This document shows, piece after piece, positions 22,853-36,663 of a stretch of 64,000 bases of DNA. Made by a program: the position numbers and the translations under genes. Where the stretch lies: positions 73,136 to 137,135 of the forward strand of contig DIXF01000001.1 of assembly GCA_002448235.1 (NCBI GenBank), read 5' to 3'. Under the pieces are notes generated by a model that worked only from the letters and a program-made list of their open reading frames with translations, made no database searches and had not been told where the DNA came from. Within the stretch, counting starts at the first letter, position 1. Each line of letters begins with the position of its first letter. Source of the DNA: Syntrophaceae bacterium UBA6087 (lineage in GTDB: Bacteria; Desulfobacterota; Desulfomonilia; UBA1062).

Positions 22853-23518
22853 CTACTGCCTGGCGGATGCCTCGTCCTCGGCCCACTTCATGGCGTAGCG
22901 CAGGAGCTCGGTGGCGCTCTTTATCCGGAGCTTTTCCTTGATCCGCTCACGGTGGGTGCCGATGGTCTTGACGCTCAAGCAGAGCCGGTCCGCGATATCG
23001 CTGATGCTCAAGCCCTCGCTGATGAGCCGGAAGACCTCCAGCTCACGGTCGGTCAAGGCCTGCACGGGAGAGTCGATGCTCGTCTGGGAGCCTTCCACGA
23101 AGCGCGTAAGCAAGTTGTCCGTGACGTTCTTGCTCGCGTAGATCCTTCCATCGAGTACCTGGCGGATGGCCTCGATCACGGATTCGGACGCCTCCTGCTT
23201 CATGATGTAGCCGCGGGCGCCGGCTCTCAAGGTGCGTTCGGCATACAGGGACTCCTCATGCATGGAGATGACCAGCATGGGGAGCGACTTGTGAGTCTTG
23301 CGCAGCTCTTTGATGAGGTCGATCCCGCTCATGTTCTTCAGCGTGATGTCAACGATCACCATATCGGGGGAGAGGTCTTTCACGGCCTTCCAGGCTGCGT
23401 GGTAGTTCTCGGCTTCGCCGCACACGATGAGGTCGTTTTCCTGGTTGATCAGCTGGGCGAGCCCGTGGCGGAAAATGGGGTGGTCGTCGACGATGAGGAT
23501 CGTGCGTTTCCCGGTCAC
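22853..23518 (-). CDS. NarL/LuxR-family response regulator
   Basis: Receiver domain (ILIVDDHPIFRHGL..D) plus a C-terminal LuxR HTH (LTDRELEVFRLISEGLSISDIADRL). The GTG start overlaps the kinase stop (GTGA). The 367-aa listed ORF is an N-terminal over-extension. Confidence 0.85.
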   Translation of the reverse strand: MTGKRTILIVDDHPIFRHGLAQLINQENDLIVCGEAENYHAAWKAVKDLSPDMVIVDITLKNMSGIDLIKELRKTHKSLPMLVISMHEESLYAERTLRAGARGYIMKQEASESVIEAIRQVLDGRIYASKNVTDNLLTRFVEGSQTSIDSPVQALTDRELEVFRLISEGLSISDIADRLCLSVKTIGTHRERIKEKLRIKSATELLRYAMKWAEDEASARQ

Positions 23519-24828
23519 AGCTCGATCTCCTCTCCCGGCGATAAGCTCTCGGAATTCGCATCGAAGAAGCAGCTTACGATCGTCCCGCCGTTTTCTCCGG
23601 CATGCACCCGAAGATTCGCCCCGATCATGCGGGCGCGGTAATTCATGATGCGCAGCCCCATGCCCTGCGAAACTGTCTCGGAGTCCATGCCTGTGCCGTT
23701 GTCCCGGACGTCCATGCGCACGACTCCCTCTTCTTCCACGAGCTCGATCGTCACCCTGTTTGCCTTGCCGTGCTCGATCGCGTTGCGGACCGATTCCTTG
23801 ACGATGTAGTAAAGGTGGGTCGCCCGCGTATTGTCCCGGACCGAAACCGGCTCCGGGCAGGTAAATGTGCACGAAATGCCGAAAATCTCCGAGATAGAGT
23901 CCGCGAGTTCCCCCAGGGCGTACGCGAAGCCGTTCGCCGTGAGGTGGACGGGGCACAGGCCTCTGGCAAGCCGCCTTGTCTTGCGGATAGCATCTTTTAC
24001 CAGGCTGTTGATCTCTTCCGCATAGGGGACGTCACCCGGTGACGAAACCTGGAGGTTCTTCTTCAGCACCTTTGTCATGACCTCGATGCCCACCAGGTGC
24101 TGGCCGAGGTCGTCGTGGAGTTCACTCCCTATCTTGCGGCGTTCGCGTTCGGATATCCCGAGGATCTCTTTTTCGAGCTGCTTGCGCTCCGTGATATCGA
24201 GCATGGAGGCGATAGTGCGCTTGGTGCCCGGGATGACGGCAATGGTCATGAAGATGTCTTTGCGCTCGCCCTGCTTTGTCACTATTCTGAACTCGTAGTT
24301 CCGGGGCGCCGCTCCCGGGTCTTCCCTCCGGGCGAGGTGATACTGCAAAAGCCGGCCGAGATCCTCCTCTGCAACGTAATGAGTCCAGGACTTGCCCACG
24401 ATATCTTTCTTGGAGTATCCCGTCACCATCTCGAATTCGACATTGAGCATGGATATGGTCGTATCCTCCTCGATGACGATCGTTGCGGTGCCGGTGTTTT
24501 CGAAGAATGTTCCATAAAAGGCATCCGACTGCTTCAATGCATCCTCCACCTGTTCCGGTCCTGCTTCATTTTCCATGAGCGTGTCGAGGCGGAGTTTCAG
24601 CAGCGTATTTTCTTCAATAAGCTCTGCCCTTGTTTTGCGTTTCTCTCCCATGAGCCCCTCATGCCGGTAAAGGCACCTTGAAAGGCATTCTACCTCATCA
24701 CTTTGAGCACGTCCACGAATATTCTGCCGTAACGCTGGGCAGGTAGGTCGGGAAGAGAAGGGGGAGGAGAAAAGGGAAAACACAATCAAGGGGGAGAACC
24801 GTTCCTCCCCCCTGATTGCGTCGGGCAT
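23515..24828 (-). CDS. PAS-domain sensor histidine kinase, HisKA_3 (NarX/DegS-like) family
   Basis: 437 aa with a PAS region, an H-box ELHDDLGQHL and an HATPase_c domain (DNGTGM..GMGL). No TM segments were seen. Confidence 0.85.
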   Translation of the reverse strand: MPDAIRGEERFSPLIVFSLFSSPFSSRPTCPALRQNIRGRAQSDEVECLSRCLYRHEGLMGEKRKTRAELIEENTLLKLRLDTLMENEAGPEQVEDALKQSDAFYGTFFENTGTATIVIEEDTTISMLNVEFEMVTGYSKKDIVGKSWTHYVAEEDLGRLLQYHLARREDPGAAPRNYEFRIVTKQGERKDIFMTIAVIPGTKRTIASMLDITERKQLEKEILGISERERRKIGSELHDDLGQHLVGIEVMTKVLKKNLQVSSPGDVPYAEEINSLVKDAIRKTRRLARGLCPVHLTANGFAYALGELADSISEIFGISCTFTCPEPVSVRDNTRATHLYYIVKESVRNAIEHGKANRVTIELVEEEGVVRMDVRDNGTGMDSETVSQGMGLRIMNYRARMIGANLRVHAGENGGTIVSCFFDANSESLSPGEEIEL

Positions 24829-24974
24829 GGGCGTATCCTGTCACGAAGCGACGCCTTCTTGAGGGATCTCCGTAATCGACAGGTCTTCGCTTCTGATCGT
24901 AGTGATGCTGTGTAACGCTCGTTGTATGACAATATGTCGCTGTTGATCAGGAAATCATGAAATAACGCCTGTTG

Positions 24975-26024
24975 TCAAGATGATTTCCGGGCGGGTGCAG
25001 GTTTTTCACCCTCGGGAGATGCGGTTTTGGGCTCATCGGACATGATGCGGGATATGGCTCTGCGGTTGAGAAGGACGTCTTTCCGCAGGAAGTTGATCTG
25101 GGATGCGAGAAAGCCGAAGGAAAGGATCTGCATACCGCCGAGGATGAACAGGATCATCAGCGTGAGCAGGGGCCTGTTCGGATTAAGGGCCTCCTGGAAG
25201 TACAGCATGAAGAAGAACACCCCCAGCCCCAGGCCGATAAGTGTAAGGACAACGCCTAAGAGCCCGAATAGCAGGCTCGGCCTCTCGAACACGGTGAAGA
25301 TGATGTGGGAGATCGCAGTTGCCCGGAAGGTGAATTTAGAGCTGCCCCGTTTGCGGGATGTGAGCGTGGCCGGGATTTCTTTAACCCGGTACCCCATGGC
25401 GAGAAGCTTCGAAAGGATTTCCAGGTGAATTTCCTTTCCGTCCGATTCAAGGTCGAGGCTTTCGATTACCTCGTTACGGTAGCAGCGGACAATACAGGTC
25501 AGGGTATGAATCCCCTCGGGTATCGCCAACTGGAGTATCTTGTTGCCGATCCGCGAGATGAAAAGTCTGTCCCGCGGTACTCCTTCCGTCGTTCCACCCT
25601 CCATGTACGCGCTTGCAAGGACCACGTCGACATCCCTCTCTTCGTCCAGCACCTTTGCCATTTCGAGGATGTATTTCGGGTCATAGGAAAGGTCGGCGTC
25701 AATGGTGGCGATGTATTTCCCCCGGGAGGCTTTGAGCCCGTAGCGCAGCGCCTTGCCCCTTCCGCCGTTCTTCCAGTAAGACACCACGCGGACGTGCGTG
25801 TTCTTACCGGCAATCGAATCGAGGAGGGCCAGGGTTTCGTCTGTGCTCCCGTCATTGACCGGAATGATCTCGAAGCTTTTCCCCGATGAGGCGAGCATCT
25901 GCGTGATTCTCAGGATCGTCTGTTCGGCATTGTCCTGTTCGTTGTACATGGGGACAATGACGCTGATGTCCGGTGAAGAGGCTATGCCGGATTGCTTATG
26001 TCCATTTGCCATCGGATGCATCAT
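24975..26024 (-). CDS. family-2 glycosyltransferase with C-terminal membrane helices (polyprenyl-phosphate sugar transferase-like)
   Basis: GT-A motifs ISVIVPMYNE, NDGSTDET and DAD, with two C-terminal TM helices. The start is set at ATGATG (26024). The longer listed ORF begins with TTG inside a hairpin and is judged unlikely. Confidence 0.75.
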   Translation of the reverse strand: MMHPMANGHKQSGIASSPDISVIVPMYNEQDNAEQTILRITQMLASSGKSFEIIPVNDGSTDETLALLDSIAGKNTHVRVVSYWKNGGRGKALRYGLKASRGKYIATIDADLSYDPKYILEMAKVLDEERDVDVVLASAYMEGGTTEGVPRDRLFISRIGNKILQLAIPEGIHTLTCIVRCYRNEVIESLDLESDGKEIHLEILSKLLAMGYRVKEIPATLTSRKRGSSKFTFRATAISHIIFTVFERPSLLFGLLGVVLTLIGLGLGVFFFMLYFQEALNPNRPLLTLMILFILGGMQILSFGFLASQINFLRKDVLLNRRAISRIMSDEPKTASPEGEKPAPARKSS

Positions 26025-26159
26025 AATAAATAATTCGGAGAGTGTATAGCATATCTTTACCTTCACCGGCGGATTCCGGGGAATATCCATAACCGAAGAA
26101 GGATCCGGCATTGCCGGCAGCAGGCGCACGGCTCTTCTCTCAAGGGGAAAAAGAAAAAG

Positions 26160-26190
26160 GACCTCTTGATTTTCCAAGAGATCCTTCTTC
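26160..26190. terminator. bidirectional hairpin (AGGACCTCTTG/CAAGAGATCCT) flanked by T-runs on both strands
   Basis: 11-bp stem with one wobble. TTCTTCCTTTTT follows on the plus strand and TTTTTCTTTTTCCCC follows on the minus strand. Confidence 0.5.
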
Positions 26191-26566
26191 CTTTTTAAGG
26201 GAGGAGTTTAGGGGTACTTTTTACAAATTAAAAATCCCAATAGGGAAACTCTCTGTAAGCATATAAGACAATGCAATGAAAATGCCATGATATAAGATAT
26301 TATAATCTATTGATAATAAAGATAAAAAAATGACCGAGAAAGGAGGGGTGTTTCGGGGGGGAGAAAAAGCCGATCCATTTTAGGAAATAATTTTCCCAGG
26401 TTCCGGGAGAAGTCGTTTTCCATCTCGGGGCCGAAGGGGTATATGCGTGGGACGGCGATGCTTGAGGGGTCATCTGATTTCCCCGTGGGGGCAAAAAGGG
26501 GACTCTTGCGTGCAGCGGCGAGCTTGCGGGGCATCCGCAGGGACCAGGCGCTGAACCGGGATATTT

Positions 26567-27403
26567 TTAACAGCCCTTGTCCAGTTTCCCGAGGAAGATT
26601 GCAAGGCCCTGCCTGTCGAGCCCGGAGCCGCCAAGCGTCATACCGTTATGGCCGGAGCCGTGATAATCCGTGCCTCCGGTTGCTATGAGGCCGAACTCAT
26701 GCGCAATCTCTGTATAGAGCTTTCTCTGAGCCCTGGTATGTTCCGGATAAAATATTTCTATCCCGTGAAGGCCCTGGCGGGCAAGGCCGCCGATATACTC
26801 TCTCAGTCCGTCCTTTGAGAGGTTCAGGGTAAAGGGATGGGCGAGAACCGTCACCCCGCCGAAGCGCACGATCGCCTCGATGGCTTCGGTGCTGGTCATC
26901 CTGTCTTTTTCAACGTATGCGGGCTTGCCTTTGCCGAGGAAGCGCGAAAAGGCGTCTTCAAAATCTCGGACATGCCCTTTCCGGATAAGGACCTTTGCAA
27001 TATGAGGCCGTCCGATCTGGCCTTCCTGCGCCATCTCGGAAACCTCCGAGGCCGTAATGTTGATGCCCAGGGAGTTCAGCTTGTCGATGATCTTCGGAAG
27101 CCGTACATTTCTGGCCGTCTGCAGGCGTTCGAGGAGGGGATCGAATTCCGAAGGGAATGAGGGGAAGTAGCCGAGGATATGGAAAGTTCCGGGATCGTAC
27201 GCAATGCTGAGCTCCACGCCCGGAATCACCCGTAAGCCGTTATGCTCGGAGTTCATCGCCTCTCGTGCTCCGGCGAGGGTGTCATGGTCGGTGATGGCTA
27301 TGGTTTCGAGGCCGGAAAACCGGGCGAGGGACAGAATCTGTTCCGGGCTTAAATCTCCGTCGGATGCCCGTGTATGGATGTGAAGATCTGCCTTGATGTG
27401 CAA
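26567..27403 (-). CDS. PHP-domain metal-dependent phosphoesterase (TrpH/YciV-like)
   Basis: 278 aa with an N-terminal HIHTRASDG and His/Asp metal ligands throughout. Confidence 0.8.
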   Translation of the reverse strand: MHIKADLHIHTRASDGDLSPEQILSLARFSGLETIAITDHDTLAGAREAMNSEHNGLRVIPGVELSIAYDPGTFHILGYFPSFPSEFDPLLERLQTARNVRLPKIIDKLNSLGINITASEVSEMAQEGQIGRPHIAKVLIRKGHVRDFEDAFSRFLGKGKPAYVEKDRMTSTEAIEAIVRFGGVTVLAHPFTLNLSKDGLREYIGGLARQGLHGIEIFYPEHTRAQRKLYTEIAHEFGLIATGGTDYHGSGHNGMTLGGSGLDRQGLAIFLGKLDKGC

Positions 27404-27412
27404 CGTCTTTCC

Positions 27413-27778
27413 TTATCCCGGGACAGAGGCCTCGAGGACTTGGGCTATCTTTTTCTTCAGCTCGGTCAAGTCGGAGGATTTTACCACATAGGCATCTGCG
27501 GCGATGGATTTTACATCGACCTTATAGCTTCCGTAAGCGCTGCATAAGATAACCGGCAGGTTATAATACTTGTTCCTGATCTCCTGGAGGACATCCAGGC
27601 CGTTCGAAGAAACCATTTTGATATCGAGGACAACGACGTCGGGCCGCTCTTTCTCGATGCGGTCAAGGATGTCGTTCCCGTCGGCTGCCAGGGCAACGTC
27701 ATATCCTTCTTCCTTCAGCTCTTCGGAATACAGCAGCCTGATATGCTTCTCATCATCAACGATCAATACCTTTGCCAT
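27413..27778 (-). CDS. single-domain response regulator receiver (CheY-like)
   Basis: 121 aa: VLIVDDE...DVVVLDIKM...K. Confidence 0.85.
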   Translation of the reverse strand: MAKVLIVDDEKHIRLLYSEELKEEGYDVALAADGNDILDRIEKERPDVVVLDIKMVSSNGLDVLQEIRNKYYNLPVILCSAYGSYKVDVKSIAADAYVVKSSDLTELKKKIAQVLEASVPG

Positions 27779-27794
27779 AGGCTACTCCTTTTTT

Positions 27795-29009
27795 TCAACT
27801 CCACCTGTCAATGATGTACGGTTTTGTCTGTTCGAAGATCAAACACATGTCCTCGATGAATTCTTCCGCCTGCAGCACGGACATCCCTTCGGTCTTATTC
27901 ACGTAGGAGAGGGTCATTCCATAGAACAAAGGAATGAGTACCTCGATCATTTTATTCCGGTCCACGGTCTTCTTGTGGCAGCTGAGCGCAAAATCGAACA
28001 GCGTTTTGGCCCAGACAGGGACGGGCATCTCGAACTGGTCCATGGGGAGTGACGCTACCTCGCGAACCTTCTGGAGGTTTTCGAACGAGAGGATGGACCG
28101 GTATGTCTCCCAGTGTGAGTTGAAACCTTCACGGAAGCGCTGGTACAGCTTTTCCTTATTTACCGAGACCGGCGGCGGCGTCTCCACCTCTGAAGTCCCG
28201 AATCCGAAAATTGCCGTAGGTTTGCTCCATTTCGTGGATTTCCACTTGGGATGGTATGAGGTCATGAGGTTGAAGACCGTCGCCACGATCTGTCTGAACA
28301 TGGGGCCGAGATCCGTTGCAGGGTCCTTGAGCTCGCTCACCTTCGGTTTGCCCATGAATGCCTGGCATATGGGGACCCCCTCGTTCATCGCGATGGTGGT
28401 CATCCAGATGTCGACTCCGTACTGGCTTACGTCTTCATCCCACAGCTCGTTCTTCAAAAACACGCTCGCCATGGCGCCGGAAAAGCCGAAGTCGCCGCCG
28501 ATGGGCTGCCGGACGCGCCTGCCGTAGAGGCAGCGGGTCAGGGGATAGACAATGTTGTTCGTGATGGTCCCGTCATACTTGTGCCGTGTGTAGAGCGGCG
28601 AAACGAAGGCAAAATCCTTGAAAAGCGGTTCTCCAAGATTCTTTACCCATCGGGGCGTGACGTTCTTGAGGTCCGCTTCCAGGACCACTACGGCCCTGGC
28701 GTTGAGCTCGATGACCTTCCGGAACAGATTTTTCAGGTTCTGCCCCTTGCCCTTCACCCCTTTCGGCGTGGAGAGGTAGATCTTGGGTATATCCAGGGTA
28801 TCCGCATTCATAAAGGACTTGCCCGTGCCGTCGGTGCTGGCGTTATCGCAATTTATGATTACCGAATCCAGATGGCCGAAATATTCTTTCAATCCAAGTG
28901 CAGCCTGCGAGGTGGGGAAGCCTATGAGGGATGCTTCGTTGTAAGAGGGGATACCGATTACGATATCTGCTCTTTTTATCTGAGCCGGATTCTCTTCAAA
29001 GGCCGTCAT
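27795..29009 (-). CDS. GT-A fold glycosyltransferase (family-2-like) with long C-terminal helical domain
   Basis: 404 aa. The N-terminus reads IVIGIPSYNEA...NCDNASTDGT, with an EAD acidic motif (VVVLEADLKN). The C-terminal ~150 aa are unrecognised. Confidence 0.6.
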   Translation of the reverse strand: MTAFEENPAQIKRADIVIGIPSYNEASLIGFPTSQAALGLKEYFGHLDSVIINCDNASTDGTGKSFMNADTLDIPKIYLSTPKGVKGKGQNLKNLFRKVIELNARAVVVLEADLKNVTPRWVKNLGEPLFKDFAFVSPLYTRHKYDGTITNNIVYPLTRCLYGRRVRQPIGGDFGFSGAMASVFLKNELWDEDVSQYGVDIWMTTIAMNEGVPICQAFMGKPKVSELKDPATDLGPMFRQIVATVFNLMTSYHPKWKSTKWSKPTAIFGFGTSEVETPPPVSVNKEKLYQRFREGFNSHWETYRSILSFENLQKVREVASLPMDQFEMPVPVWAKTLFDFALSCHKKTVDRNKMIEVLIPLFYGMTLSYVNKTEGMSVLQAEEFIEDMCLIFEQTKPYIIDRWS

Positions 29010-29140
29010 GCAATGTTCTCCAAATCAAGGTGATATCATTCCATTCTCGGTTATTTACTCTCTAATGGCAATAGAAAATTTCCTTTCCAAAATGCCCTCT
29101 TGCCTTTTCACAGCAACTATGGGAATCTAAATAATTCAAA

Positions 29141-30823
29141 ATGCCGATACACGATAAACCCATCATAGTGCAGAGCGACGGGAGTGTGCTCCTGGAGGTC
29201 CAGTCTCCCGAGTATGAGAAGGCCCGGGACGTGATCATGCCGTTTGCCGAGCTGATAAAATCACCCGAGTATGTCCATACCTACCGGATCACGCCTTTGA
29301 GCATCTGGAATGCCGCGGCTCTGGGCATCTACTATGACGACGTTGTCCAAAAGTTAAAAGATTATTCGCGGTACGAGATCCCGGCAGGGGTGCTGTTCAG
29401 GATAAAAGATTCTTTTGACCGCTGGGATGCGGTGCGCATGACAAGGCACGGTGAAGGAACGCTCCGTGTTGAAACAAAAACGCCCGAAATCCTCGACCAG
29501 CTCGTTTCGAAACCGGGCATAAAAGACATGGTCATCGAACTCGACCCTCCACGTTCCTTTATCATCGATGGTGCTACGAGGGGACGCTTCAAACATATGC
29601 TCATCAAGGCAGGATTCCCGGTGCACGACCTCGTCGGCTTCGACCCGGGAGACGGTCTGGAAGTCCGGCTGAGAGAGAAAACACTGGCCGGCAGTCCGTT
29701 CTCTCTACGCCAGTACCAGATCGAAGCGTGCAAGAATTTCTGGGCGGGCGGAAGCGTACGCGGAGGACAGGGCATCGTCGTGCTTCCCTGCGGGGCGGGA
29801 AAAACGGTCGTGGGCATCAATGCCATGGCGGTGGCCAAAACCCAGACGCTCATCCTCTGCACCAACGTATCCGCCGTTCACCAGTGGATCCGGGAGCTGC
29901 TCGACAAGACGGATCTGAAGAGCGAGGACATCGGTGAATATACCGGCAATAAAAAAGAGATCAGGCCCGTTACGGTGACGACCTACCAGATTCTCACCTA
30001 CCGGAAGGAAAAGACCGGCCCCTTCGAGCATATGAAGCTCATGGGCGCCATGAACTGGGGCCTGCTCATCTATGACGAAGTCCATGTGGTGCCTGCGCCG
30101 GTATTTCGAGCCACCACGGAGATTCAGGCCAAGCGAAGGCTCGGGCTCACCGCCACGCTTATCCGTGAAGACGGACTCGAAGAAGACGCTTTTTCCCTCG
30201 TGGGGCCGAAGTGCTTCGATGTGCCCTGGAAGGAGCTGGAGCTCAAAGGCTTCATCGCCGAGGCGTGCTGCTATGAGATCCGCCTGCCTCTGCCTCCGGA
30301 AAAAGAGCATGAGTATGCCATGGCAGGCGATCGTACACAGTTCAGGATTGCTTCTGAGAATGTCTATAAAGAAAGGGCGATGAAGGAGCTTATCAAGAAG
30401 CACGCCAATGAACCGGTGCTCGTGATCGGCCAGTATGTGAGCCAGCTGAAGCGTATCTCGGATACCCTGAAGGCGCCTCTCATTACCGGGACGACGCCGA
30501 ACTCGAAACGCGACAGCCTTTACGGCGCATTCCGGAGGGGAGAGCTTCCGGTTCTCGTGGTTTCGAAAGTCGCCAATTTTGCCATAGATCTCCCCGACGC
30601 ATCGGTGGCAATCCAGGTGTCAGGAACCTTCGGATCGAGGCAGGAAGAGGCGCAGCGGCTCGGCAGGATCTTGAGGCCGAAGGAAAGGATCTCCACGTTT
30701 TATACGCTGGTGAGCCGGCAGACCTCGGAAGAGGATTTTGCCCATAAAAGACAAATCTTCCTTGCAGAGCAGGGCTATAAGTACACCATCGAGGAATGGA
30801 GCAACAGTGACATCAACCTATGA
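29141..30823 (+). CDS. XPB/ERCC3-like SF2 DNA helicase
   Basis: 560 aa with Walker A LPCGAGKTV, a DEVH box (LLIYDEVHVVPA), helicase C motifs, and an XPB-type N-terminal damage-recognition-like region. Confidence 0.85.
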   Translation: MPIHDKPIIVQSDGSVLLEVQSPEYEKARDVIMPFAELIKSPEYVHTYRITPLSIWNAAALGIYYDDVVQKLKDYSRYEIPAGVLFRIKDSFDRWDAVRMTRHGEGTLRVETKTPEILDQLVSKPGIKDMVIELDPPRSFIIDGATRGRFKHMLIKAGFPVHDLVGFDPGDGLEVRLREKTLAGSPFSLRQYQIEACKNFWAGGSVRGGQGIVVLPCGAGKTVVGINAMAVAKTQTLILCTNVSAVHQWIRELLDKTDLKSEDIGEYTGNKKEIRPVTVTTYQILTYRKEKTGPFEHMKLMGAMNWGLLIYDEVHVVPAPVFRATTEIQAKRRLGLTATLIREDGLEEDAFSLVGPKCFDVPWKELELKGFIAEACCYEIRLPLPPEKEHEYAMAGDRTQFRIASENVYKERAMKELIKKHANEPVLVIGQYVSQLKRISDTLKAPLITGTTPNSKRDSLYGAFRRGELPVLVVSKVANFAIDLPDASVAIQVSGTFGSRQEEAQRLGRILRPKERISTFYTLVSRQTSEEDFAHKRQIFLAEQGYKYTIEEWSNSDINL

Positions 30824-32558
30824 TCTGATCTCCCATATCCCGGGCTATATGGTAGAAATCCTTTCAGCCCGCATCCTCGGTAAATCCGTCGACACGTACA
30901 AGCTGGCGGAGGGATTGAGCGACGAGCAGCGGCTGGAAGGCATACTGACCGGCCTCTCCCACAGACAACATTCTCTTCTCATGGATCTCTACGAGCTCGG
31001 CGGGAGCGTGCAGTGGGAGGTGCTGAATGCGCTTTACTGCCGTGACCTCGGGGAGCTCAGGCAGGACCTCGTCTACCTGGGGGGGAAAGGTCTTGTTTTT
31101 CAGGGGGGCTTGAGCGCGAGGGATCCGATCATCCTTCTGCCGTCACTCTACCCACTCATGGAAGAAAGCCGCAGACGCTTTATCAGAAAAGTGGATGACT
31201 TGAGATGGGCGGCGTTGCCTCAGGTGAGTATATGGGGCCATATATCCTTGCTGAATACGCTCCGGACGTCCCGGATACGCTGCAGGTCCGGAATGGAGCC
31301 ATTCAAGCGCGGGTGGGAATTTCTCGAAGAAAGGCTCGGCGGCATGCTCGACCTCGAGAGGGTGTACTGGGAACTCGTCGAGCTGGGCTGCATAAGAGAA
31401 AAAAAGGGCGTGCTGGAGGTTTCCCTGCAGGCAAGCACCGATTTTGCCATGGAGGGAGACGCGCGGTATTCTCTCTGGAGGTTCATCCAATCGTGCAGGC
31501 CCTACCCGGGCTTGGAGCACAAGGTCTTCAGTTCCGTAGCGGACAAGGCCGTCCGGCGTGATCTCCTCCTGAGAGCGCTTCATCTCTTCCTCCTCGGCAG
31601 GGACCCGGAAGAACCCAGGGGCAAGGAGATCGCCGGCTCACTGATCGATCTCTGGCTGGATCTCGGGATCCTGAGGAAAGACCTGGACGGCACATGGCTC
31701 TGCTTCGCCGATCAGGTATACAGGTCGCTGAAGACAGGCACTGCCGAGGCGCAATTACGACGCTATTGCGATGATGTCGTGATACAGCCGGACATGGAGA
31801 TACTCGTTCCGGGCGATTTCGACCCGGTGGATCTCCTGAATGTAGGAGAGATCGCGGACCTTATCCAGACCGATATCGTCAGCATCTACCGCCTCACCAA
31901 AAAATCGGTGTCCAGAGGTTTGAAGGAAGGCTGGGACGTTCAGAAGCTCAAGGGCTTCCTCGAACGGATATCACGCCACCAGCTGCCCGACAATGTACGG
32001 AAGACCATTGAGGGCTGGGCCATGACGCGTGCAGAGGCCCACATCCTCCGCGGCACCTTCCTGGTACTTTCCAGAGCGGATTGCAAAGCTTCCCGCGGGC
32101 TCAAAGAGGTTCTTCCCGGGATTTACCGGATACCTGAAAACTGTGAGGAAGAGATTATCGCCCTGCTCGACAAGAAGGATGTGACCGTCGTGGGGGCGGA
32201 GTCCGAGAGGGAGGCCGAAGAGGGCGCATCCTGGGGGAAACTCCTTCCCTTCCAGCTTACACAGAAGTGTCTGTGGAAAGAGGCCAGGAAGGAGGGTATT
32301 TTCCCGTTCGGAATGGTCTCTCCCCTCCCATACGGTTCGAAAGGGGAGGGGGTATTCGAGAAGGCCCTGAATGACGGCGAGACTATCGTCATTTTTTATC
32401 CGAAGCAGGGCTACGGCGAGATAGAGATGAAGAGAATCAGCCCGATCTACATTTACCGCAAGGGAGGGATTCCTTTTGTGGAGGCCTTCTGCGAGGACAC
32501 CGGAGAAGGCGAGGTGTTCGATATCACCAAGGTCAGGGCACTGTTAAAGGGCGTCTGA
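30807..32558 (+). CDS. XPB-associated protein of unknown function with WYL-like C-terminal domain
   Basis: ~583 aa from GTG 30807 (RBS GGAG at 30798). An alternative ATG lies at 30738. It overlaps the XPB stop. The C-terminus ETIVIFYPKQGYGEIEMKRISPIYIYRKGGIPFVEAFCEDTGEGEVFDITKV resembles WYL domains. Confidence 0.7.
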   Translation: MTSTYDLISHIPGYMVEILSARILGKSVDTYKLAEGLSDEQRLEGILTGLSHRQHSLLMDLYELGGSVQWEVLNALYCRDLGELRQDLVYLGGKGLVFQGGLSARDPIILLPSLYPLMEESRRRFIRKVDDLRWAALPQVSIWGHISLLNTLRTSRIRCRSGMEPFKRGWEFLEERLGGMLDLERVYWELVELGCIREKKGVLEVSLQASTDFAMEGDARYSLWRFIQSCRPYPGLEHKVFSSVADKAVRRDLLLRALHLFLLGRDPEEPRGKEIAGSLIDLWLDLGILRKDLDGTWLCFADQVYRSLKTGTAEAQLRRYCDDVVIQPDMEILVPGDFDPVDLLNVGEIADLIQTDIVSIYRLTKKSVSRGLKEGWDVQKLKGFLERISRHQLPDNVRKTIEGWAMTRAEAHILRGTFLVLSRADCKASRGLKEVLPGIYRIPENCEEEIIALLDKKDVTVVGAESEREAEEGASWGKLLPFQLTQKCLWKEARKEGIFPFGMVSPLPYGSKGEGVFEKALNDGETIVIFYPKQGYGEIEMKRISPIYIYRKGGIPFVEAFCEDTGEGEVFDITKVRALLKGV

Positions 32559-32560
32559 TA

Positions 32561-33880
32561 TCAATTTTTTATAACCTTGCCGACGTATTCCTTCATTTCT
32601 TTGAGTTCGTCTACCACGTGAGCATCCAGGTCTTTCTCGTTTTCAAGCGCCTTGGTTATGTGATGGAGGGCTGCCTTGTGCTTGGCGGTTTTAAAGAAAT
32701 ACCTGGCGAAAGAAACATGAGAAAGCGACTGTTTCGACGCTTTCTGATAGAGGATGCCCAGTCTGTAATCCACACTCGCATCCTGTTTCTGGAACGGAAG
32801 GATGACCGCGACAGCCTGATCGAACTCTCCCCGCTCCTCCATGATTTCGGACAGAACTATCTGTGACCTGGCAGAATTCCCGAACTGTTTGAGATACGGG
32901 TATGCTTCGTCCTTTTTCCCCATCAATGCGAGATTGAGCCCCTTGTATGCGTTCGCCAGAGGCAGGTCGACATCTTTCAGCAGGGCCAGCGCCTTATCGT
33001 GCCTGCCTTTCCGTGTTTCCAGGAGGCCCAGCGAGAGGTTGCGGTACGGTTCCGGTATTGTGGCCGACCTCTGTACCGCCTCTTCTTCGGGGAGGAGCAG
33101 GCCGCTGATGCTTGCGTGAAGGTTCCAGTAGTACGAGTCCGGCTTCGGCTTCTGCACATCCGGGGACTGGCCCGAGATACGGTTCGTACTGTGCGGGTGT
33201 GTAAGCAGGTATTCGGGTATGTTCGAACCTCCCGAATACGCGTTCAGCCTTGAGAGGAACCTGTTCATGGCTGAAGGGGAAAAGCCGGAATCGCTGATGA
33301 GCCTGGTCCCGAAATCGTCCGCGTCGTACTCATGGCTCCGGGAATAGGCAAGCTTGAAGTTCTCGCCTCCGCCCAGGGAGGAGAAAACCAGGGCTGCACC
33401 GGCCTCAGGATTTTTGGCAGATACAAGAGTTCCCAGGAGGACCCCGACAATCGATGCGGCCGTTACGGCCTTCTGCTCTTCAAGTGTCTGGGGTATATGG
33501 CGCTGCTGTGCATGGCCCATCTCGTGGCCGATTACTGCAGCGATCTCATCGATGTCTCTGGCAAACAGAAGGGTTCCGACGTTGATGAAGATATGCCCGT
33601 CCGGGATGGTAAACGCATTGATGGACCTGTCACTGATTACGTGAATGGTGAAGGTGTATACCGGGCTTTTCACATGGTCGGCAAGCCTCTCCGTAATCAT
33701 TTTGACCGGCCAGGTGATTTCATGGTCGTAGACAATGAGCCCGTTGGCATCCAGATTCGTAATGATTTCCTGGGAGATCTTCCTCTCCTCGTCATACGTC
33801 ATGGCGTATGACAGCCGGGGAAGAGAGATGATGCAGGTTATGAGCAGCAGGCAAACAGTCTTTCTCATGGATATGAACAT
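32561..33880 (-). CDS. M48-family zinc metalloprotease with C-terminal TPR repeats (BepA-like)
   Basis: Signal peptide, the HExxH motif AVIGHEMGHAQQRH, and TPR-like helices. Confidence 0.85.
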   Translation of the reverse strand: MFISMRKTVCLLLITCIISLPRLSYAMTYDEERKISQEIITNLDANGLIVYDHEITWPVKMITERLADHVKSPVYTFTIHVISDRSINAFTIPDGHIFINVGTLLFARDIDEIAAVIGHEMGHAQQRHIPQTLEEQKAVTAASIVGVLLGTLVSAKNPEAGAALVFSSLGGGENFKLAYSRSHEYDADDFGTRLISDSGFSPSAMNRFLSRLNAYSGGSNIPEYLLTHPHSTNRISGQSPDVQKPKPDSYYWNLHASISGLLLPEEEAVQRSATIPEPYRNLSLGLLETRKGRHDKALALLKDVDLPLANAYKGLNLALMGKKDEAYPYLKQFGNSARSQIVLSEIMEERGEFDQAVAVILPFQKQDASVDYRLGILYQKASKQSLSHVSFARYFFKTAKHKAALHHITKALENEKDLDAHVVDELKEMKEYVGKVIKN

Positions 33881-34272
33881 GGCACACTCTCCCGTTCTTT
33901 ACAAGACCGTCGTCTTAGGACAGACCCGCCTTCTTCTGCTGATATCCCCATTGTAGGGCATGCACCGGCAGAAGGGCAATCGCTGTCGATTATTCAAAAA
34001 CCTGCTCGGAAATGAAATTCGGAATCCTTAAGGCTTTTGCATATAGAGGTTACTGATGTGAAGGATGGACAGGGTTTCAAGTGCACCTCCTGCGGAATGG
34101 GTCATTCGTCCGGTTCATAAAAATCGGTTACAAAACAGTAACATGGGCTACGAAAGTGTCGTGTAACCCCGATCGCAAATCTATATAACAATACGATATT
34201 AATCTTTAATTTTGGTTGGCTTATCTCTTGCCTCAGGGAAGACTGAGCGATTGCTACTACTGGAGGTGTTCC

Positions 34273-36663
34273 ATGAGGCAAACACGAAATGTATTTTTTA
34301 TTGTTATTTCATTTCTTCTGTTTTCCTACGTGTCGGGGCACGCCGCATCCGTTCTGGTAAGCTGGAACGCGAATACCGAAAGCGACCTCGCAGGATACTA
34401 CCTCTATTACGGATCTCAATCAGGGACATACACGACGAAGACGGATGTGGGAAAAGTCACGAGTTATGAGCTTGGCGCCCAGTCCGGTACGACGTACTAC
34501 CTTGCGATAACCGCCTATGACACCTCCGGTAACGAATCAGGCTACTCCAGTGAAGTAAGCGTGTACGTTCCTGTTCCCGACACTACACCTCCCACCGGGA
34601 CCGTCGTGATCGGTGCAGGCAGTGCGACCACTCCCTCCCGTGTGGTTACACTTTTGTTATCCGCCGGCGATGCAGGCGGAACGGTTGTTTCGATGAGAAT
34701 AAGCAACGACGGCGTGAACTGGTCCGGCGAGGCTCCGTTCTCGGCTTCACAATCATGGGTGCTCACGGAAGGTGACGGACTCAAGACCGTATATGTGAAT
34801 TACAAAGATGCCTCAGGCAACTGGATGGCGACGCCTGCCCGCGATACCATCGAACTCCGCCTCGATACCGACGGCGACGGCCTGCCGAACTCATGGGAGG
34901 TAACCTACGGCCTCGACCCGGAAAACCCGGTCGATGCAGCGTGGGATCTGGACCTTGACGGCATTTCCAATTACGAAGAATACTATAACGGCTCGAACCC
35001 GGCGAGCGCGTATGACAATACGCCCGTTGCGCGCGCAGGGGCGGATCAGCAGACGGCTCCTACCCGTGTATACCTTGATGGATCAACGTCCACCGATCCC
35101 AATGGCGACACCCTCCAGTACGCCTGGTCGCTCGTAAGCGGACCCGCTGCGGTAACCATTGATAATTCAACGAGTGCCCGAGCCAGTCTTGTAGGTACAA
35201 AAGCGGGCCTCTACCGCTTCATGCTCAAGTGCTTCGACGGCAAGTCGACGGGTTCGGATACCGTGGATATTACCATATTGAACGTCGCTCCGAATGTGAA
35301 CGCAGGAAGCGACATGACCGTTACCGTCGGGGCACAGGTTGTGCTTCATGCAACCGGCGCGGACTCCAATGAAGACAGCCTGACGTACCAGTGGAAGTTC
35401 GTCCAGGGCACGGCCATGACGGTGCCGGACATGAATCAGCAGAACATCACGCTTACGTTCGGCACGGCCGGTCAGTACCGCTTCTCGGTAACCTGTTCCG
35501 ACGGGACCCTTACGAGCCCTGCCGATGAAGTTACAATAACCGCGAACGCACTGAACAATGCACCCACAGCCAATGCAGGCGCGGACCAGAGCGTACAGAC
35601 CGGCTCGGTGGTGACGCTGGACGGCAGCGGTTCATCCGATCCCGACGGCAACAATCTGAGCTATGCCTGGAGGCAGACCAACGGCACCGCTGTTGCGCTT
35701 CAGAACTCCCAGAGCGTATCGCCGGCCTTTACCGCGACTGCAGCAGGCACCTTCGAATTCGAGCTCGTGGTCAATGACGGCCTCGTATCCTCGACCCCTG
35801 ACAGAATATGGGTCACGGTCCTGAAGCAGAACACTGCGCCGGTTGCTGATGCGGGTTATGACGTCGATATCTATGCAGGCGAGCAGGTTGTCCTCGACGG
35901 AACCGGGTCCTATGATCCGGACGGCGACGCGATAAGCTATTCATGGACTCAGAATTCCGGTGCAAGTGTCGTCCTGTCCGGTGCACAGACCGCACACCCG
36001 ACCTTTACACCCACTGCATCGGGGGTATTGGGCTTCACGCTCAAGGTCTCCGACGGACAGGCTGCAACGCAGGATACGGTACTCGTAACGGTCGACAGCA
36101 TCAATGGGGTGCCGGTTGCGGAAGCCGGCCAGGATCAAACGGTACAGGCAGGCGCTGTCGTAACCTTAGACGGCCGCTTGAGCAGCGATCCGGACGGAGA
36201 TTCAGTCTCCTATATCTGGTCGCAGGTCTCGGGTACGAGGGTATCACTGAACAATTCCAATACCGCGACCCCGTCCTTTGCCCCGACAGTGGAAGGCGTG
36301 TACGTGTTCGAGCTGAAGGTCTATGACGGGAAAGATACCAGCAGCCCTGACACCGTAACCGTTACCGTGCAGCAATCCGAAGTGGCCATCTCGTTGACCA
36401 CACCGCAGTTGGGCGACATTATGAACGAAAACCCGATCTTAAGCTGGAATGCTTCGGGGTTCGGCAAGTATAAGACGTACATCAGCGTAAACGGGAAAAA
36501 GTACAGCAACATCTACACCGGCACCGGCACCTCGTGCAAAATGAGCTCAACGCTCTGGAACCTGTTCATCCCCTCCGGCACCACGATATACTGGTACGTT
36601 GAAGGGACTACCCTGGATAAGAAGACCCTCAAGAGCGCCAAGGGCAATTTCAAGAAACGCTGA
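34273..36663 (+). CDS. large secreted repeat protein: FN3-like N-terminus, Ca-binding thrombospondin-type-3-like segment, six tandem PKD/Ig-like domains
   Basis: ATG 34273 follows GGAGG, and the product has a signal peptide. A DTDGDGLPNSWE..DLDLDGISNYEE segment is followed by six ~95-aa repeats of the pattern A.AG.DQ.V..G..V.LDGS.S.DPDGD...Y.W.Q..G..V.L. The listed ORF start at 34216 is judged upstream of the true start. Confidence 0.8.
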   Translation: MRQTRNVFFIVISFLLFSYVSGHAASVLVSWNANTESDLAGYYLYYGSQSGTYTTKTDVGKVTSYELGAQSGTTYYLAITAYDTSGNESGYSSEVSVYVPVPDTTPPTGTVVIGAGSATTPSRVVTLLLSAGDAGGTVVSMRISNDGVNWSGEAPFSASQSWVLTEGDGLKTVYVNYKDASGNWMATPARDTIELRLDTDGDGLPNSWEVTYGLDPENPVDAAWDLDLDGISNYEEYYNGSNPASAYDNTPVARAGADQQTAPTRVYLDGSTSTDPNGDTLQYAWSLVSGPAAVTIDNSTSARASLVGTKAGLYRFMLKCFDGKSTGSDTVDITILNVAPNVNAGSDMTVTVGAQVVLHATGADSNEDSLTYQWKFVQGTAMTVPDMNQQNITLTFGTAGQYRFSVTCSDGTLTSPADEVTITANALNNAPTANAGADQSVQTGSVVTLDGSGSSDPDGNNLSYAWRQTNGTAVALQNSQSVSPAFTATAAGTFEFELVVNDGLVSSTPDRIWVTVLKQNTAPVADAGYDVDIYAGEQVVLDGTGSYDPDGDAISYSWTQNSGASVVLSGAQTAHPTFTPTASGVLGFTLKVSDGQAATQDTVLVTVDSINGVPVAEAGQDQTVQAGAVVTLDGRLSSDPDGDSVSYIWSQVSGTRVSLNNSNTATPSFAPTVEGVYVFELKVYDGKDTSSPDTVTVTVQQSEVAISLTTPQLGDIMNENPILSWNASGFGKYKTYISVNGKKYSNIYTGTGTSCKMSSTLWNLFIPSGTTIYWYVEGTTLDKKTLKSAKGNFKKR

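What the first reader, a model, noticed from the sequence alone, without database searches (positions are those of the whole stretch)
29141..32558. Bacterial XPB/ERCC3-like helicase translationally coupled to a ~583-aa partner with WYL-like C-terminus
An XPB-type SF2 helicase (GAGKT, DEVH) is followed by a large ORF whose GTG start overlaps the helicase stop. The overlap is 17 nt (or 86 nt if ATG 30738 is the start), and the partner has no recognisable catalytic motifs. Its last ~60 aa (IVIFYPKQGYGEIEMKRISPIYIYRKGGIPFVEAFCEDTGEGEVFDI) resemble WYL ligand-sensing domains. In archaea XPB pairs with the Bax1 nuclease. Bacterial XPB partners are poorly characterised. The pair is divergent from a glycosyltransferase/receiver/PHP cluster and not embedded in classic repair operons. 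It could be a repair module or a helicase-based defense or regulatory module.
Basis: partly seen in the sequence, partly recalled or inferred. Interest (0 to 1): 0.6.

Follow-up and report, generated by a model that had tools for sequence, protein, structure and literature searches.

The report
Bacterial XPB helicase with p52-like partner
A bacterial copy of the DNA-repair helicase XPB is translationally coupled to a partner that shares with p52, the human TFIIH subunit that holds and regulates XPB, its XPB-docking domain and broad layout, but ends in a bacterial WYL sensor domain, so an XPB-p52-type two-protein module appears to exist in bacteria.

Summary
An XPB helicase gene (29141-30823, NCBIfam XPB equivalog at 810 bits) overlaps a 583-aa ORF by 17 nt. 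That ORF starts at GTG 30807.

The partner is not Bax1-like, and it has no match to any enzyme family. Its high-confidence AlphaFold model (pLDDT 87) finds TFIIH p52/Tfb2 as its best PDB matches (Foldseek E 4e-7, about 500 aligned columns), then the XPB N-terminal domain, then WYL regulators.

It has three parts:
- a tandem winged-helix N-terminal region (aa 1-312)
- a 'clutch' domain (aa 324-465, Pfam Helicase_C_3), homologous to the p52 domain that docks on the XPB N-terminal domain
- a C-terminal WYL-type barrel (aa 497-583) where p52 has its p8-binding domain

Only the clutch homology is secure. The N-terminal likeness to p52 is marginal.

XPB lies immediately upstream of the partner in 49 of 49 related loci, and the overlap is 17 nt in 43. 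Among 29 distant XPB loci with enough flank, 23 have an adjacent clutch-domain protein.

Most likely the partner is the regulatory and anchoring subunit of a chromosomal XPB translocase acting in DNA repair or a transcription-linked process. No paper in the searchable library describes it.

The parts
29141..30823 (+). XPB/ERCC3-type SF2 helicase gene, 560 aa, stop TGA 30821-30823
   Evidence: NCBIfam NF045503 repair_heli_XPB at 810 bits against a cutoff of 610. Pfam finds ResIII, ERCC3_RAD25_C and Helicase_C.
29162..29536 (+). XPB N-terminal domain (aa 8-132, Pfam Helicase_C_3), the predicted docking surface for the partner's clutch domain
   Evidence: Pfam PF13625, E 2.2e-28. It shows 30% identity (E 2e-4) to the partner's clutch domain in pairwise BLASTP. 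In TFIIH the equivalent domain pairs with the p52 clutch (PMC6422496).
29792..29806 (+). Walker A motif GAGKT (aa 218-222)
   Evidence: invariant in the XPB alignment A3
30074..30085 (+). Motif II DEVH (aa 312-315)
   Evidence: invariant in A3
30164..30172 (+). RED motif (aa 342-344), a hallmark of XPB
   Evidence: invariant in A3
30792..30801 (+). Shine-Dalgarno-like AGGAATGGAG inside the last XPB codons (E-E-W-S). The GGAG lies 5 nt before the partner's GTG.
   Evidence: Sequence. AGGAGTGG or AGGAATGG is conserved 15 nt upstream of the partner start in nearly all 49 loci.
30807..30823 (+). 17-nt overlap between the partner start (GTG 30807) and the XPB stop; translational coupling
   Evidence: the same 17-nt overlap occurs in 43 of 49 related loci
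30807..32558 (+). Partner gene, 583 aa. Databases call it 'helicase-associated domain-containing protein' or 'Helicase XPB/Ssl2 N-terminal domain-containing protein'.
   Evidence: AF2 model with pLDDT 86.8 and pTM 0.81
30807..31742 (+). Partner N-terminal region (aa 1-312): about three tandem winged-helix modules
   Evidence: The AF2 model of aa 1-320 has pLDDT 91.4. Foldseek gives PaaX at E 1.1e-3, then p52/Tfb2 chains at E 5e-3 to 9e-2 over about 335 columns, including 6tru 'N-terminal half of p52', then MarR/ArsR wHTH proteins, TFIIE and RPC62.
31776..32201 (+). Partner 'clutch' domain (aa 324-465), of the Pfam Helicase_C_3 / p52 MD2 type
   Evidence: Pfam PF13625, E 1.2e-13, at aa 324-405. 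hhalign against the vertebrate p52 clutch gives prob 89.9%, E 1.7e-6. Full-length hhalign aligns partner 190-418 with p52 179-407 at E 6.3e-5. Foldseek hits p52 and the XPB N-terminal domain.
32202..32294 (+). Low-confidence linker (aa 466-496)
   Evidence: pLDDT of 57-81 per 10-residue block, with aa 488-491 below 50
32295..32555 (+). C-terminal WYL-type barrel (aa 497-583: one helix plus five strands)
   Evidence: PADLOC WYL E 0.02 at aa 519-578. Pfam WYL hits 24 of 27 homologues, best 6.3e-6. Foldseek matches BrxR, CapW and PafBC at rmsd 2.5 A over about 70 aa. The A1 profile region 517-576 matches the Pfam-certified WYL of the XPB-linked partner in L136.

Best explanation
The two genes encode a two-subunit XPB machine.

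The 583-aa partner is a non-catalytic regulatory and anchoring subunit that works like TFIIH p52. Its clutch domain (aa 324-465) is a paralogue of XPB's own N-terminal domain. It is predicted to dock on that domain as a pseudo-symmetric pair, and so to position and tune the RecA2 lobe and the ATPase/translocase activity.

The tandem winged helices (aa 1-312) would supply DNA contacts or contacts with other proteins. The C-terminal WYL barrel stands where p52 has its p8-binding domain. It would either sense a nucleic-acid ligand such as damage-generated ssDNA or contact the motor directly.

The conserved 17-nt overlap, with an SD inside the XPB codons, would couple synthesis of the two proteins. 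The pair most likely acts in chromosomal DNA repair or a transcription-linked DNA-opening task.

Shown: the identity of XPB, the coupling and its conservation, the clutch homology, the WYL-type fold, and the stable chromosomal position.

Inferred: physical binding, ATPase regulation, the ligand and the cellular pathway.
For: Identity of the helicase: XPB equivalog at 810 bits with GAGKT, DEVH and RED motifs.

Structure of the partner: the AF2 model has pLDDT 86.8. The top PDB matches are all p52/Tfb2, with E 4e-7 to 1e-4, about 500 collinear columns and prob 1.0. XPB/Ssl2 N-terminal domains come next, then WYL regulators. Chain 8ebt_D was verified to be GTF2H4.

Clutch homology:
- hhalign of the clutch against the p52 clutch gives prob 89.9%, E 1.7e-6.
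- Full-length hhalign gives E 6.3e-5 over 212 columns.
- Eukaryotic p52 proteins themselves carry PF13625 hits.
- Pfam Tfb2 gives weak hits in 8 of 27 homologues, and 3.8e-6 in relative P0168.
- The window's XPB N-terminal domain and the partner clutch are 30% identical, E 2e-4.

Linkage:
- XPB is directly upstream in 49 of 49 clade loci, with a 17-nt overlap in 43 of 49.
- In a census of 80 distant XPB loci, 23 of the 29 with at least 2 kb on both sides have an adjacent same-strand clutch protein. Some of these carry WYL above Pfam's cutoff.
- A variant partner with an RNAP alpha-CTD-like domain also overlaps an XPB gene.

Literature:
- The p52 clutch and the XPB N-terminal domain form a pseudo-symmetric dimer, and p52 CTD-p8 cradles RecA2 (PMC6422496).
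- p52/p8 both activate XPB and limit its speed (PMC7708078).
- Mtb XPB alone needed a large molar excess to unwind DNA, and its authors did not exclude an unidentified partner (PMC3353954).
- WYL domains of PafBC and DriD sense ssDNA (PMC12392091).
Against: - No interaction was tested or modelled.
- Sequence homology to p52 is confined to the clutch. For the N-terminal region, hhalign gives prob 5.6% and Foldseek on that region alone gives no hit at E<=1e-3, with PaaX ranking above p52.
- No member reaches Pfam's Tfb2 cutoff.
- The WYL region is not basic, with 10 K/R against 12 D/E. Its most conserved loop, EAFCEDTGEGE, is acidic. That sits poorly with ssDNA binding.
- Some XPB genes stand alone, and some clutch+WYL relatives are not next to XPB. 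The partnership is therefore not obligatory everywhere.
Confidence: 0.65

Rival explanations
1. The partner is mainly a WYL-type, damage-responsive transcription factor of the PafBC, DriD, BrxR or CapW kind. Its winged helices would bind an operator, and its WYL domain would sense ssDNA or another signal. It would control expression of xpb or of a regulon, rather than serve as a stoichiometric helicase subunit.
For: It has several winged-helix modules plus a WYL barrel. Foldseek hits BrxR, CapW and PafBC, including a 461-column PafBC alignment at E 3.7e-3. MarR/ArsR-type wHTH proteins appear among the hits to the N-terminal region. Some clutch+WYL relatives are not adjacent to XPB.
Against: - The domain order (WH x3, clutch, WYL) and the size differ from the wHTH-WYL-WCX regulators.
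- The most conserved and best-supported domain is the XPB-type clutch, for which no role in a simple repressor or activator is evident.
- A conserved 17-nt translational overlap is more typical of subunits made together than of a regulator.
- The partner lies downstream of the gene it would regulate.
Confidence: 0.12
2. The pair is a helicase-based anti-phage or anti-plasmid defence module, in which the WYL domain senses infection.
For: WYL domains are frequent in defence regulators (BrxR and CapW hits). The helicase gives partial PADLOC hits to PbeA at E 7.6e-22 and to DinG/Cas3-type models.
Against: - The PADLOC hits cover only the generic SF2 core, and the protein clears the XPB equivalog cutoff.
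- The locus sits in conserved synteny with a glycosyltransferase, receiver domain, PHP domain, M48 peptidase, alr and ftsZ across the clade down to 40% partner identity.
- GC content shows no island signature.
- There is no nuclease or other effector gene.
- The partner has no tblastn match in 72,556 plasmids or 50,697 phages.
Confidence: 0.05
3. The partner is the bacterial counterpart of archaeal Bax1: a nuclease that cuts DNA opened by XPB.
For: In archaea XPB is paired with a neighbouring nuclease gene (PMC7293015, PMC7672443). Gene adjacency is the only parallel.
Against: No Bax1, DUF790 or any other nuclease family is hit by any of the 27 homologues at E<=1, nor by the window protein in Pfam, NCBIfam or PADLOC. 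No Bax1 structure appears among the 50 listed Foldseek matches, where p52, XPB and WYL proteins dominate. No metal-binding catalytic constellation is evident among the invariant residues.
Confidence: 0.03

Closest known systems
TFIIH subunit p52 / Tfb2 (GTF2H4), the partner of eukaryotic XPB/Ssl2
   Same: It is the best structural match in the PDB (E 4e-7, about 500 collinear columns). The clutch/MD2 domain is homologous (hhalign prob 89.9%), and it is the same Pfam domain, PF13625, that p52 itself carries. The general order is also shared: helical and winged-helix region, then clutch, then a small C-terminal domain. The protein is non-catalytic and is paired with an XPB that has the matching N-terminal domain.
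   Different: It fails the Pfam Tfb2 cutoff. The N-terminal similarity is marginal. The C-terminal p8-binding domain (Tfb2_C) is absent and a WYL barrel stands in its place. No p8, p34, p44 or p62 counterparts lie in the operon. The TM-scores of about 0.2 show a different arrangement of the domains.
Bacterial XPB (Mycobacterium tuberculosis Rv0861c/Ercc3) and the uncharacterised 'Helicase_C_3 domain-containing' proteins
   Same: The helicase belongs to the same NCBIfam equivalog. The partner belongs to the broad, unstudied bacterial family that databases name only by its PF13625 domain. An example is MAP_0800c, listed in PMC7601679. I found that family adjacent to XPB in 23 of 29 well-flanked loci.
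   Different: Published biochemistry used XPB alone (PMC3353954). In the papers I could search, no function, complex or p52 relationship is described for the partner family. The window's subfamily (583 aa, clutch plus a divergent WYL) was found only in contigs labelled Desulfomonilia, Deltaproteobacteria or Thermodesulfobacteriota, apart from a few labelled otherwise.
WYL-domain nucleic-acid sensors (PafBC, DriD, BrxR, CapW; the WYL-bearing PIF1 helicase is recalled from my own knowledge)
   Same: The C-terminal barrel has the WYL fold (rmsd 2.5 A over about 70 aa to BrxR). The sequence pattern is recognised by Pfam WYL in 24 of 27 homologues.
   Different: It is not preceded by the usual single wHTH and not followed by a WCX domain. 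The domain is acidic to neutral, with a conserved EDTGEGE loop. The window protein itself does not reach Pfam WYL at E<=1.
Archaeal XPB-Bax1 helicase-nuclease
   Same: An XPB gene is paired with a dedicated neighbouring partner gene.
   Different: This partner has no nuclease domain and no similarity to Bax1. Bax1 binds the XPB thumb motif and HD2 (PMC13024598), whereas here the predicted contact is between the clutch and the XPB N-terminal domain.

Membership tests
XPB/ERCC3/Rad25 helicase (bacterial equivalog NF045503) | Full-length match above the curated equivalog cutoff | tested here: met
   810.2 bits against a cutoff of 610, covering aa 7-550 of 560
XPB/ERCC3/Rad25 helicase (bacterial equivalog NF045503) | SF2 motifs, namely Walker A and DExH, plus the XPB-specific RED motif | tested here: met
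   GAGKT at 218-222, DEVH at 312-315 and RED at 342-344; all invariant in A3
XPB/ERCC3/Rad25 helicase (bacterial equivalog NF045503) | N-terminal XPB/Ssl2 domain (PF13625) | tested here: met
   Helicase_C_3 at aa 8-132, E 2.2e-28
TFIIH p52 / Tfb2 family (partner) | Match to Pfam Tfb2 (PF03849) above the gathering score of 34.5 bits | tested here: not met
   The window protein has no hit at E<=1. Eight of 27 homologues hit weakly, best E 0.012. Relative P0168 scores 26.5 bits.
TFIIH p52 / Tfb2 family (partner) | Clutch/MD2 domain with the fold of the XPB N-terminal domain | tested here: met
   PF13625, E 1.2e-13. hhalign to the p52 clutch gives prob 89.9%, E 1.7e-6. Foldseek hits p52 and the XPB N-terminal domain.
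TFIIH p52 / Tfb2 family (partner) | N-terminal NTD and MD1 domains homologous to those of p52 | tested here: inconclusive
   hhalign on the N-terminal region gives prob 5.6%. Foldseek with the model of aa 1-320 gives p52/Tfb2 at E 5e-3 to 9e-2 (seven of the top twelve hits), but PaaX ranks first and nothing reaches E<=1e-3. Adding the N-terminal region improves the full-length p52 E-value about 100-fold over the clutch-only XPB hits.
TFIIH p52 / Tfb2 family (partner) | C-terminal p8/Tfb5-binding domain (Tfb2_C, PF18307) | tested here: not met
   No Pfam hit. hhalign of the C-terminal region against the p52 CTD finds nothing. The fold is a WYL barrel.
TFIIH p52 / Tfb2 family (partner) | Binds XPB and modulates its ATPase | not testable with these tools
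   Inferred only, from the conserved overlapping genes and the clutch homology.
WYL domain (PF13280) proteins | Sequence match to the WYL profile | tested here: inconclusive
   The window protein has no Pfam WYL hit at E<=1, and PADLOC WYL gives E 0.02. Of the homologues, 24 of 27 hit at E<=1, best 6.3e-6. XPB-linked relatives L114 and L136 score 41.6 and 43.9 bits against a cutoff of 21.8.
WYL domain (PF13280) proteins | Sm/SH3-like five-stranded barrel fold | tested here: met
   The model has helix 511-523 followed by five strands. Foldseek matches BrxR at rmsd 2.5 A over 69-71 residues, and also CapW and PafBC.
WYL domain (PF13280) proteins | Binds a ligand (ssDNA, RNA or a nucleotide) | not testable with these tools
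   The conserved surface is acidic to neutral, so ligand binding is uncertain.
Bax1 / DUF790 nuclease (archaeal XPB partner) | Match to the Bax1/DUF790 profile or fold | tested here: not met
   No such family appears among the 14 families hit by any of the 27 homologues at E<=1. No Bax1 chain appears among the 50 listed Foldseek PDB matches.
Known anti-phage defence systems (PADLOC) | Full-length match of either protein to a defence-system model, and a defence-island or mobile context | tested here: not met
   There are only partial SF2-core hits (PbeA) and a weak WYL hit. The chromosomal position is syntenic across the clade. There is no match in plasmids or phages.

The most novel reading that the evidence does not exclude
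Bacteria possess a minimal TFIIH-like module. XPB and a p52-type clutch protein would share ancestry with the eukaryotic XPB-p52 pair. The complex would act on transcription, by opening or remodelling DNA at RNA polymerase or rescuing stalled polymerase, and not only in lesion repair. The C-terminal module (WYL here, an RNAP alpha-CTD-like domain in other lineages) would target the complex to ssDNA or to the transcription apparatus. This would mean that the XPB-p52 core of TFIIH is older than eukaryotes.
Probability: 0.12. Interest if true: 0.9.

Novelty: new variant of a known kind. Interest (0 to 1): 0.62.

Why it matters
The role of XPB in bacteria is still called elusive in a 2026 review (PMC13024598). 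A 2012 study stated that p52 homologues had not been found in bacteria (PMC3353954). The 2020 p52 crystal-structure paper reported no significant structural relatives for its NTD, MD1 and MD2 domains (PMC7708078).

This locus shows that bacterial XPB usually comes with a dedicated, translationally coupled partner carrying the p52-type clutch. That has three consequences:
- It names the likely missing cofactor for bacterial XPB biochemistry, since Mtb XPB alone was only weakly active.
- It offers a simple two-protein bacterial model for how a clutch protein regulates the XPB motor.
- It raises a testable evolutionary question about the origin of the XPB-p52 core of TFIIH.

The WYL end also suggests a route by which the motor could be switched on by a nucleic-acid signal.

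Tried and rejected
- **Other start codons.** TTG 30738 and ATG 30849 were rejected. Homologues are 569-608 aa and nearly all begin with the conserved MTST/MKST..DLI N-terminus.
- **Bax1/DUF790 nuclease.** No hit.
- **Direct sequence search of the PDB.** The single protein found nothing meaningful. The profile found only weak XPB N-terminal domain hits at E 0.02-0.07 and p52 at E 1.2.
- **Mobile-element origin.** tblastn of the partner against plasmids and phages found nothing.
- **Sequence-level homology of the N-terminal half to p52.** Not supported. A separate AF2 model of aa 1-320 followed by Foldseek gave only marginal p52 hits.
- **WYL region against the p52 CTD.** No similarity.
- **Complex prediction.** A fused or paired XPB+partner prediction was considered but not attempted.
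- **Literature.** Eight searches found no paper describing a bacterial p52-like XPB partner. The library lacks most subscription journals, so this is not proof that none exists.
- **Promoter and terminator scan.** Nothing above the shuffle expectation.
- **tRNA and Rfam scans.** Only two tRNAs, far from the locus.

Full report
**Observation**

The + strand carries a 560-aa ORF at 29141-30823 and, in another frame, an ORF that ends at 32558.

The first ORF is a true XPB:
- It matches NCBIfam NF045503 'DNA repair helicase XPB' at 810 bits against a cutoff of 610.
- Pfam finds Helicase_C_3 (aa 8-132), ResIII and ERCC3_RAD25_C.
- It has GAGKT (218-222), DEVH (312-315) and the XPB hallmark RED motif (342-344).

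The second ORF has three possible starts: TTG 30738, GTG 30807 and ATG 30849. GTG 30807 is correct for three reasons:
- A GGAG lies 5 nt upstream of it.
- An identical 583-aa protein is on record.
- The 66 close homologues are 569-608 aa when full length, and nearly all begin with the conserved MTST/MKST..DLI N-terminus.

The codon at 30738 is TTG, not ATG.

**Is the coupling real?**

A scan of one genome per species returned 50 loci encoding the partner. Nearly all come from MAGs labelled Desulfomonilia, Deltaproteobacteria or Thermodesulfobacteriota.
- XPB lies immediately upstream in all 49 loci that have upstream DNA. XPB is 66-90% identical to the window's copy and the partner is 40-89% identical.
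- The overlap is exactly 17 nt in 43 of the 49 loci.
- The start codon is ATG in 33 loci and GTG in 8.
- An AGGAGTGG or AGGAATGG motif, formed by XPB's own E-E-W codons, is conserved 15 nt upstream of the partner start.

The surrounding genes are syntenic in most of these loci. These are the divergent glycosyltransferase-like, receiver and PHP genes, the convergent M48 peptidase, a PKD-repeat protein, alr and ftsZ. GC content is unremarkable. This is a stable chromosomal operon of two genes, not an island.

**What the partner is**

Sequence searches alone say little:
- Pfam finds only Helicase_C_3 (PF13625) at aa 324-405, E 1.2e-13.
- NCBIfam finds nothing useful.
- PADLOC gives a weak WYL hit, E 0.02, at aa 519-578.
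- The PDB gives nothing by phmmer.
- Databases call the protein 'helicase-associated domain-containing protein' or 'Helicase XPB/Ssl2 N-terminal domain-containing protein'.

An AlphaFold2 model built on 27 homologues is confident, with pLDDT 86.8 and pTM 0.81. Foldseek against the PDB ranks three groups of matches:
- **TFIIH p52/Tfb2 comes first.** Examples are 9pd3_D, 8ebs_D, 7zs9_2, 7o4i_2 and the 6trs p52/p8 crystal structure. E-values run from 4e-7 to 1e-4 over about 470-540 aligned columns at prob 1.0. Chain 8ebt_D was confirmed to be GTF2H4.
- **XPB/Ssl2 N-terminal domains come second,** at E around 3e-5.
- **WYL regulators come third:** BrxR, CapW and PafBC, at E around 1e-3 and rmsd 2.5 A over about 70 residues.

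TM-scores are low, about 0.2. The domains match but their arrangement does not.

**Testing the p52 likeness domain by domain**

I checked my recalled human p52 sequence against the PDB and it is identical to the deposited chain, 462 of 462 residues. I used it to collect vertebrate p52 proteins. These carry Tfb2, Tfb2_C and also PF13625 hits.

| Partner region | Test | Result |
|---|---|---|
| Full length | hhalign against p52 | partner 190-418 aligns with p52 179-407; E 6.3e-5, prob 65% |
| Clutch | hhalign against the p52 clutch | prob 89.9%, E 1.7e-6 |
| aa 1-320 | hhalign against p52 1-300 | prob 5.6% |
| WYL region | hhalign against the p52 CTD | no similarity |
| aa 1-320 | separate AF2 model (pLDDT 91.4), then Foldseek | no hit at E<=1e-3 |

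In that last search PaaX leads at E 1.1e-3. Many p52/Tfb2 chains follow at E 5e-3 to 9e-2 over about 335 columns, including 6tru, 'N-terminal half of p52'. Generic wHTH proteins, TFIIE and RPC62 come after that.

Three conclusions follow:
- The clutch domain is homologous to the p52 clutch and to the XPB N-terminal domain. Within the window itself, the XPB N-terminal domain and the partner clutch are 30% identical, E 2e-4.
- The N-terminal region is a tandem winged-helix array whose likeness to the N-terminal half of p52 is collinear but only marginal.
- The C-terminal domain is not p52-like. It is WYL-like.

Support for the WYL assignment:
- Pfam WYL hits 24 of 27 homologues at E<=1, best 6.3e-6.
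- The fold matches WYL regulators.
- Profile region 517-576 matches the Pfam-certified WYL domain of an XPB-linked relative, L136.

**How widespread is the pair?**

A profile search of 1.84 billion representative proteins found only about 15 full-length clusters of this subfamily. It also found 2,401 proteins that share mainly the clutch region.

I then scanned metagenomes with an XPB alignment. This gave 80 XPB loci, of which 79 are only 51-57% identical to the window's XPB. I searched their ORFs with HMMs of the partner:
- 41 loci have an adjacent same-strand ORF carrying the clutch.
- With an iterated HMM, 23 of the 29 loci with at least 2 kb on both sides have one. It is usually just downstream and overlapping, and sometimes just upstream.
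- Of ten such partners scanned with Pfam, nine show Helicase_C_3 and two show WYL above the cutoff.

Variants exist:
- A 508-aa partner without WYL lies next to XPB.
- An 879-aa partner with an RNAP alpha-CTD-like domain and a SEC-C motif overlaps an XPB gene by 4 nt.

There are exceptions too. A minority of XPB genes stand alone. Some clutch+WYL proteins are not next to XPB in the DNA available.

**Mechanism**

By analogy, I propose the following:
- The partner docks on the XPB N-terminal domain through its clutch and regulates the motor.
- The winged helices supply DNA or protein contacts.
- The WYL barrel, at the position of p52 CTD-p8, acts as a sensor or as a motor-contacting module.

WYL domains of PafBC and DriD sense ssDNA produced by damage (PMC12392091). 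Here, however, the domain is acidic to neutral, with 10 K/R against 12 D/E and a conserved EDTGEGE loop. The ligand is therefore uncertain.

Two published observations fit this picture:
- M. tuberculosis XPB alone needed a large molar excess to unwind DNA, and its authors did not exclude an unidentified partner (PMC3353954).
- An Mtb ercc3 deletion is hypersusceptible to rifampin (PMC10534295). Together with the alpha-CTD-like variant, this is a faint hint of a link to transcription.

**Rivals**

- **A PafBC-like transcription factor.** This is possible but fits poorly with the clutch domain, the domain order and the translational coupling.
- **A defence module.** This is disfavoured by the synteny, the absence from plasmids and phages, the lack of an effector gene, and the fact that PADLOC hits cover only the generic SF2 core.
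- **A Bax1-like nuclease.** This is rejected.

**Novelty**

A 2012 paper states that p52 homologues had not been found in bacteria. A 2020 structure paper found no significant structural relatives for p52's NTD, MD1 and MD2 domains. A 2026 review calls the function of bacterial XPB elusive.

Eight full-text searches found no description of this partner. The library omits most subscription journals. Pfam has long placed PF13625 on XPB, on p52 and on these bacterial proteins, so the clutch link is implicit in the databases.

I classify the finding as a new variant of a known kind: an XPB-p52-type helicase-regulator pair, in bacteria, with a WYL end.

**Limits**

- No interaction was modelled or measured.
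- The census used stop-to-stop ORFs and an iterated HMM, which could include a few false positives.
- The metagenome loci carry no taxonomy.

Noticed in passing
window 29107-29143: A promoter-like TTCACA-17-AATAAT ends 5 nt before the XPB ATG at 29141, and no Shine-Dalgarno sequence is visible upstream. The xpb mRNA could be leaderless. The scan as a whole found no more sites than in shuffled sequence (3 against a mean of 2.1).
   Followed up: no
window 32556-32563: The partner's stop codon (ending at 32558) and the stop codon of the convergent M48 peptidase gene (32561-33880, - strand) are only 2 nt apart. That leaves no intergenic room for terminators. The only terminator-like hairpin nearby (32376-32390) lies inside the partner's coding sequence.
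   Followed up: no
L142:2-2931 (protein P0082): In another lineage the protein overlapping the XPB gene by 4 nt has the clutch domain followed by an RNA polymerase alpha-CTD-like HhH domain and a SEC-C zinc motif instead of WYL. The C-terminal module of XPB partners therefore seems interchangeable.
   Followed up: partly
L054:4458-8352 (protein P0168): A 516-aa clutch protein has the strongest Tfb2 hit seen (E 3.8e-6). It is not next to XPB. It lies between a 180-aa unknown ORF and an overlapping mutL gene, which suggests a link between clutch proteins and mismatch repair.
   Followed up: no
L074:1944-3308 and seven other XPB loci; L135:8684-9487 and four others: Other genes recur near distant XPB-partner pairs. 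One is an unannotated ORF of about 455 aa, seen directly upstream of the partner in L074, where the partner precedes XPB; similar ORFs occur in seven other XPB loci. Another is a NYN ribonuclease with an OST-HTH/LOTUS domain, in 5 loci.
   Followed up: partly
P0022 and L029: Two records that encode this partner are labelled 'archaeon' and 'Methanobacteriota archaeon'. They are 72% and 49% identical to the window's partner, and L029 also carries the same XPB-partner junction. These are probably binning or labelling errors in the MAGs.
   Followed up: no
window 23515-29009, - strand: The divergent cluster is syntenic with the XPB pair in roughly 17-30 of the 50 related loci. It comprises a PAS histidine kinase, a GT2 glycosyltransferase, a PHP-domain protein, a stand-alone receiver domain and a mannosylglycerate-synthase-like glycosyltransferase. 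The stand-alone receiver is 89-98% identical in the loci shown, far more conserved than its neighbours.
   Followed up: partly
window 34216-36663: An 815-aa protein with five K319L-like PKD repeats and a bacterial TSP3 repeat is conserved downstream in 28 related loci. It is unrelated to the finding.
   Followed up: no
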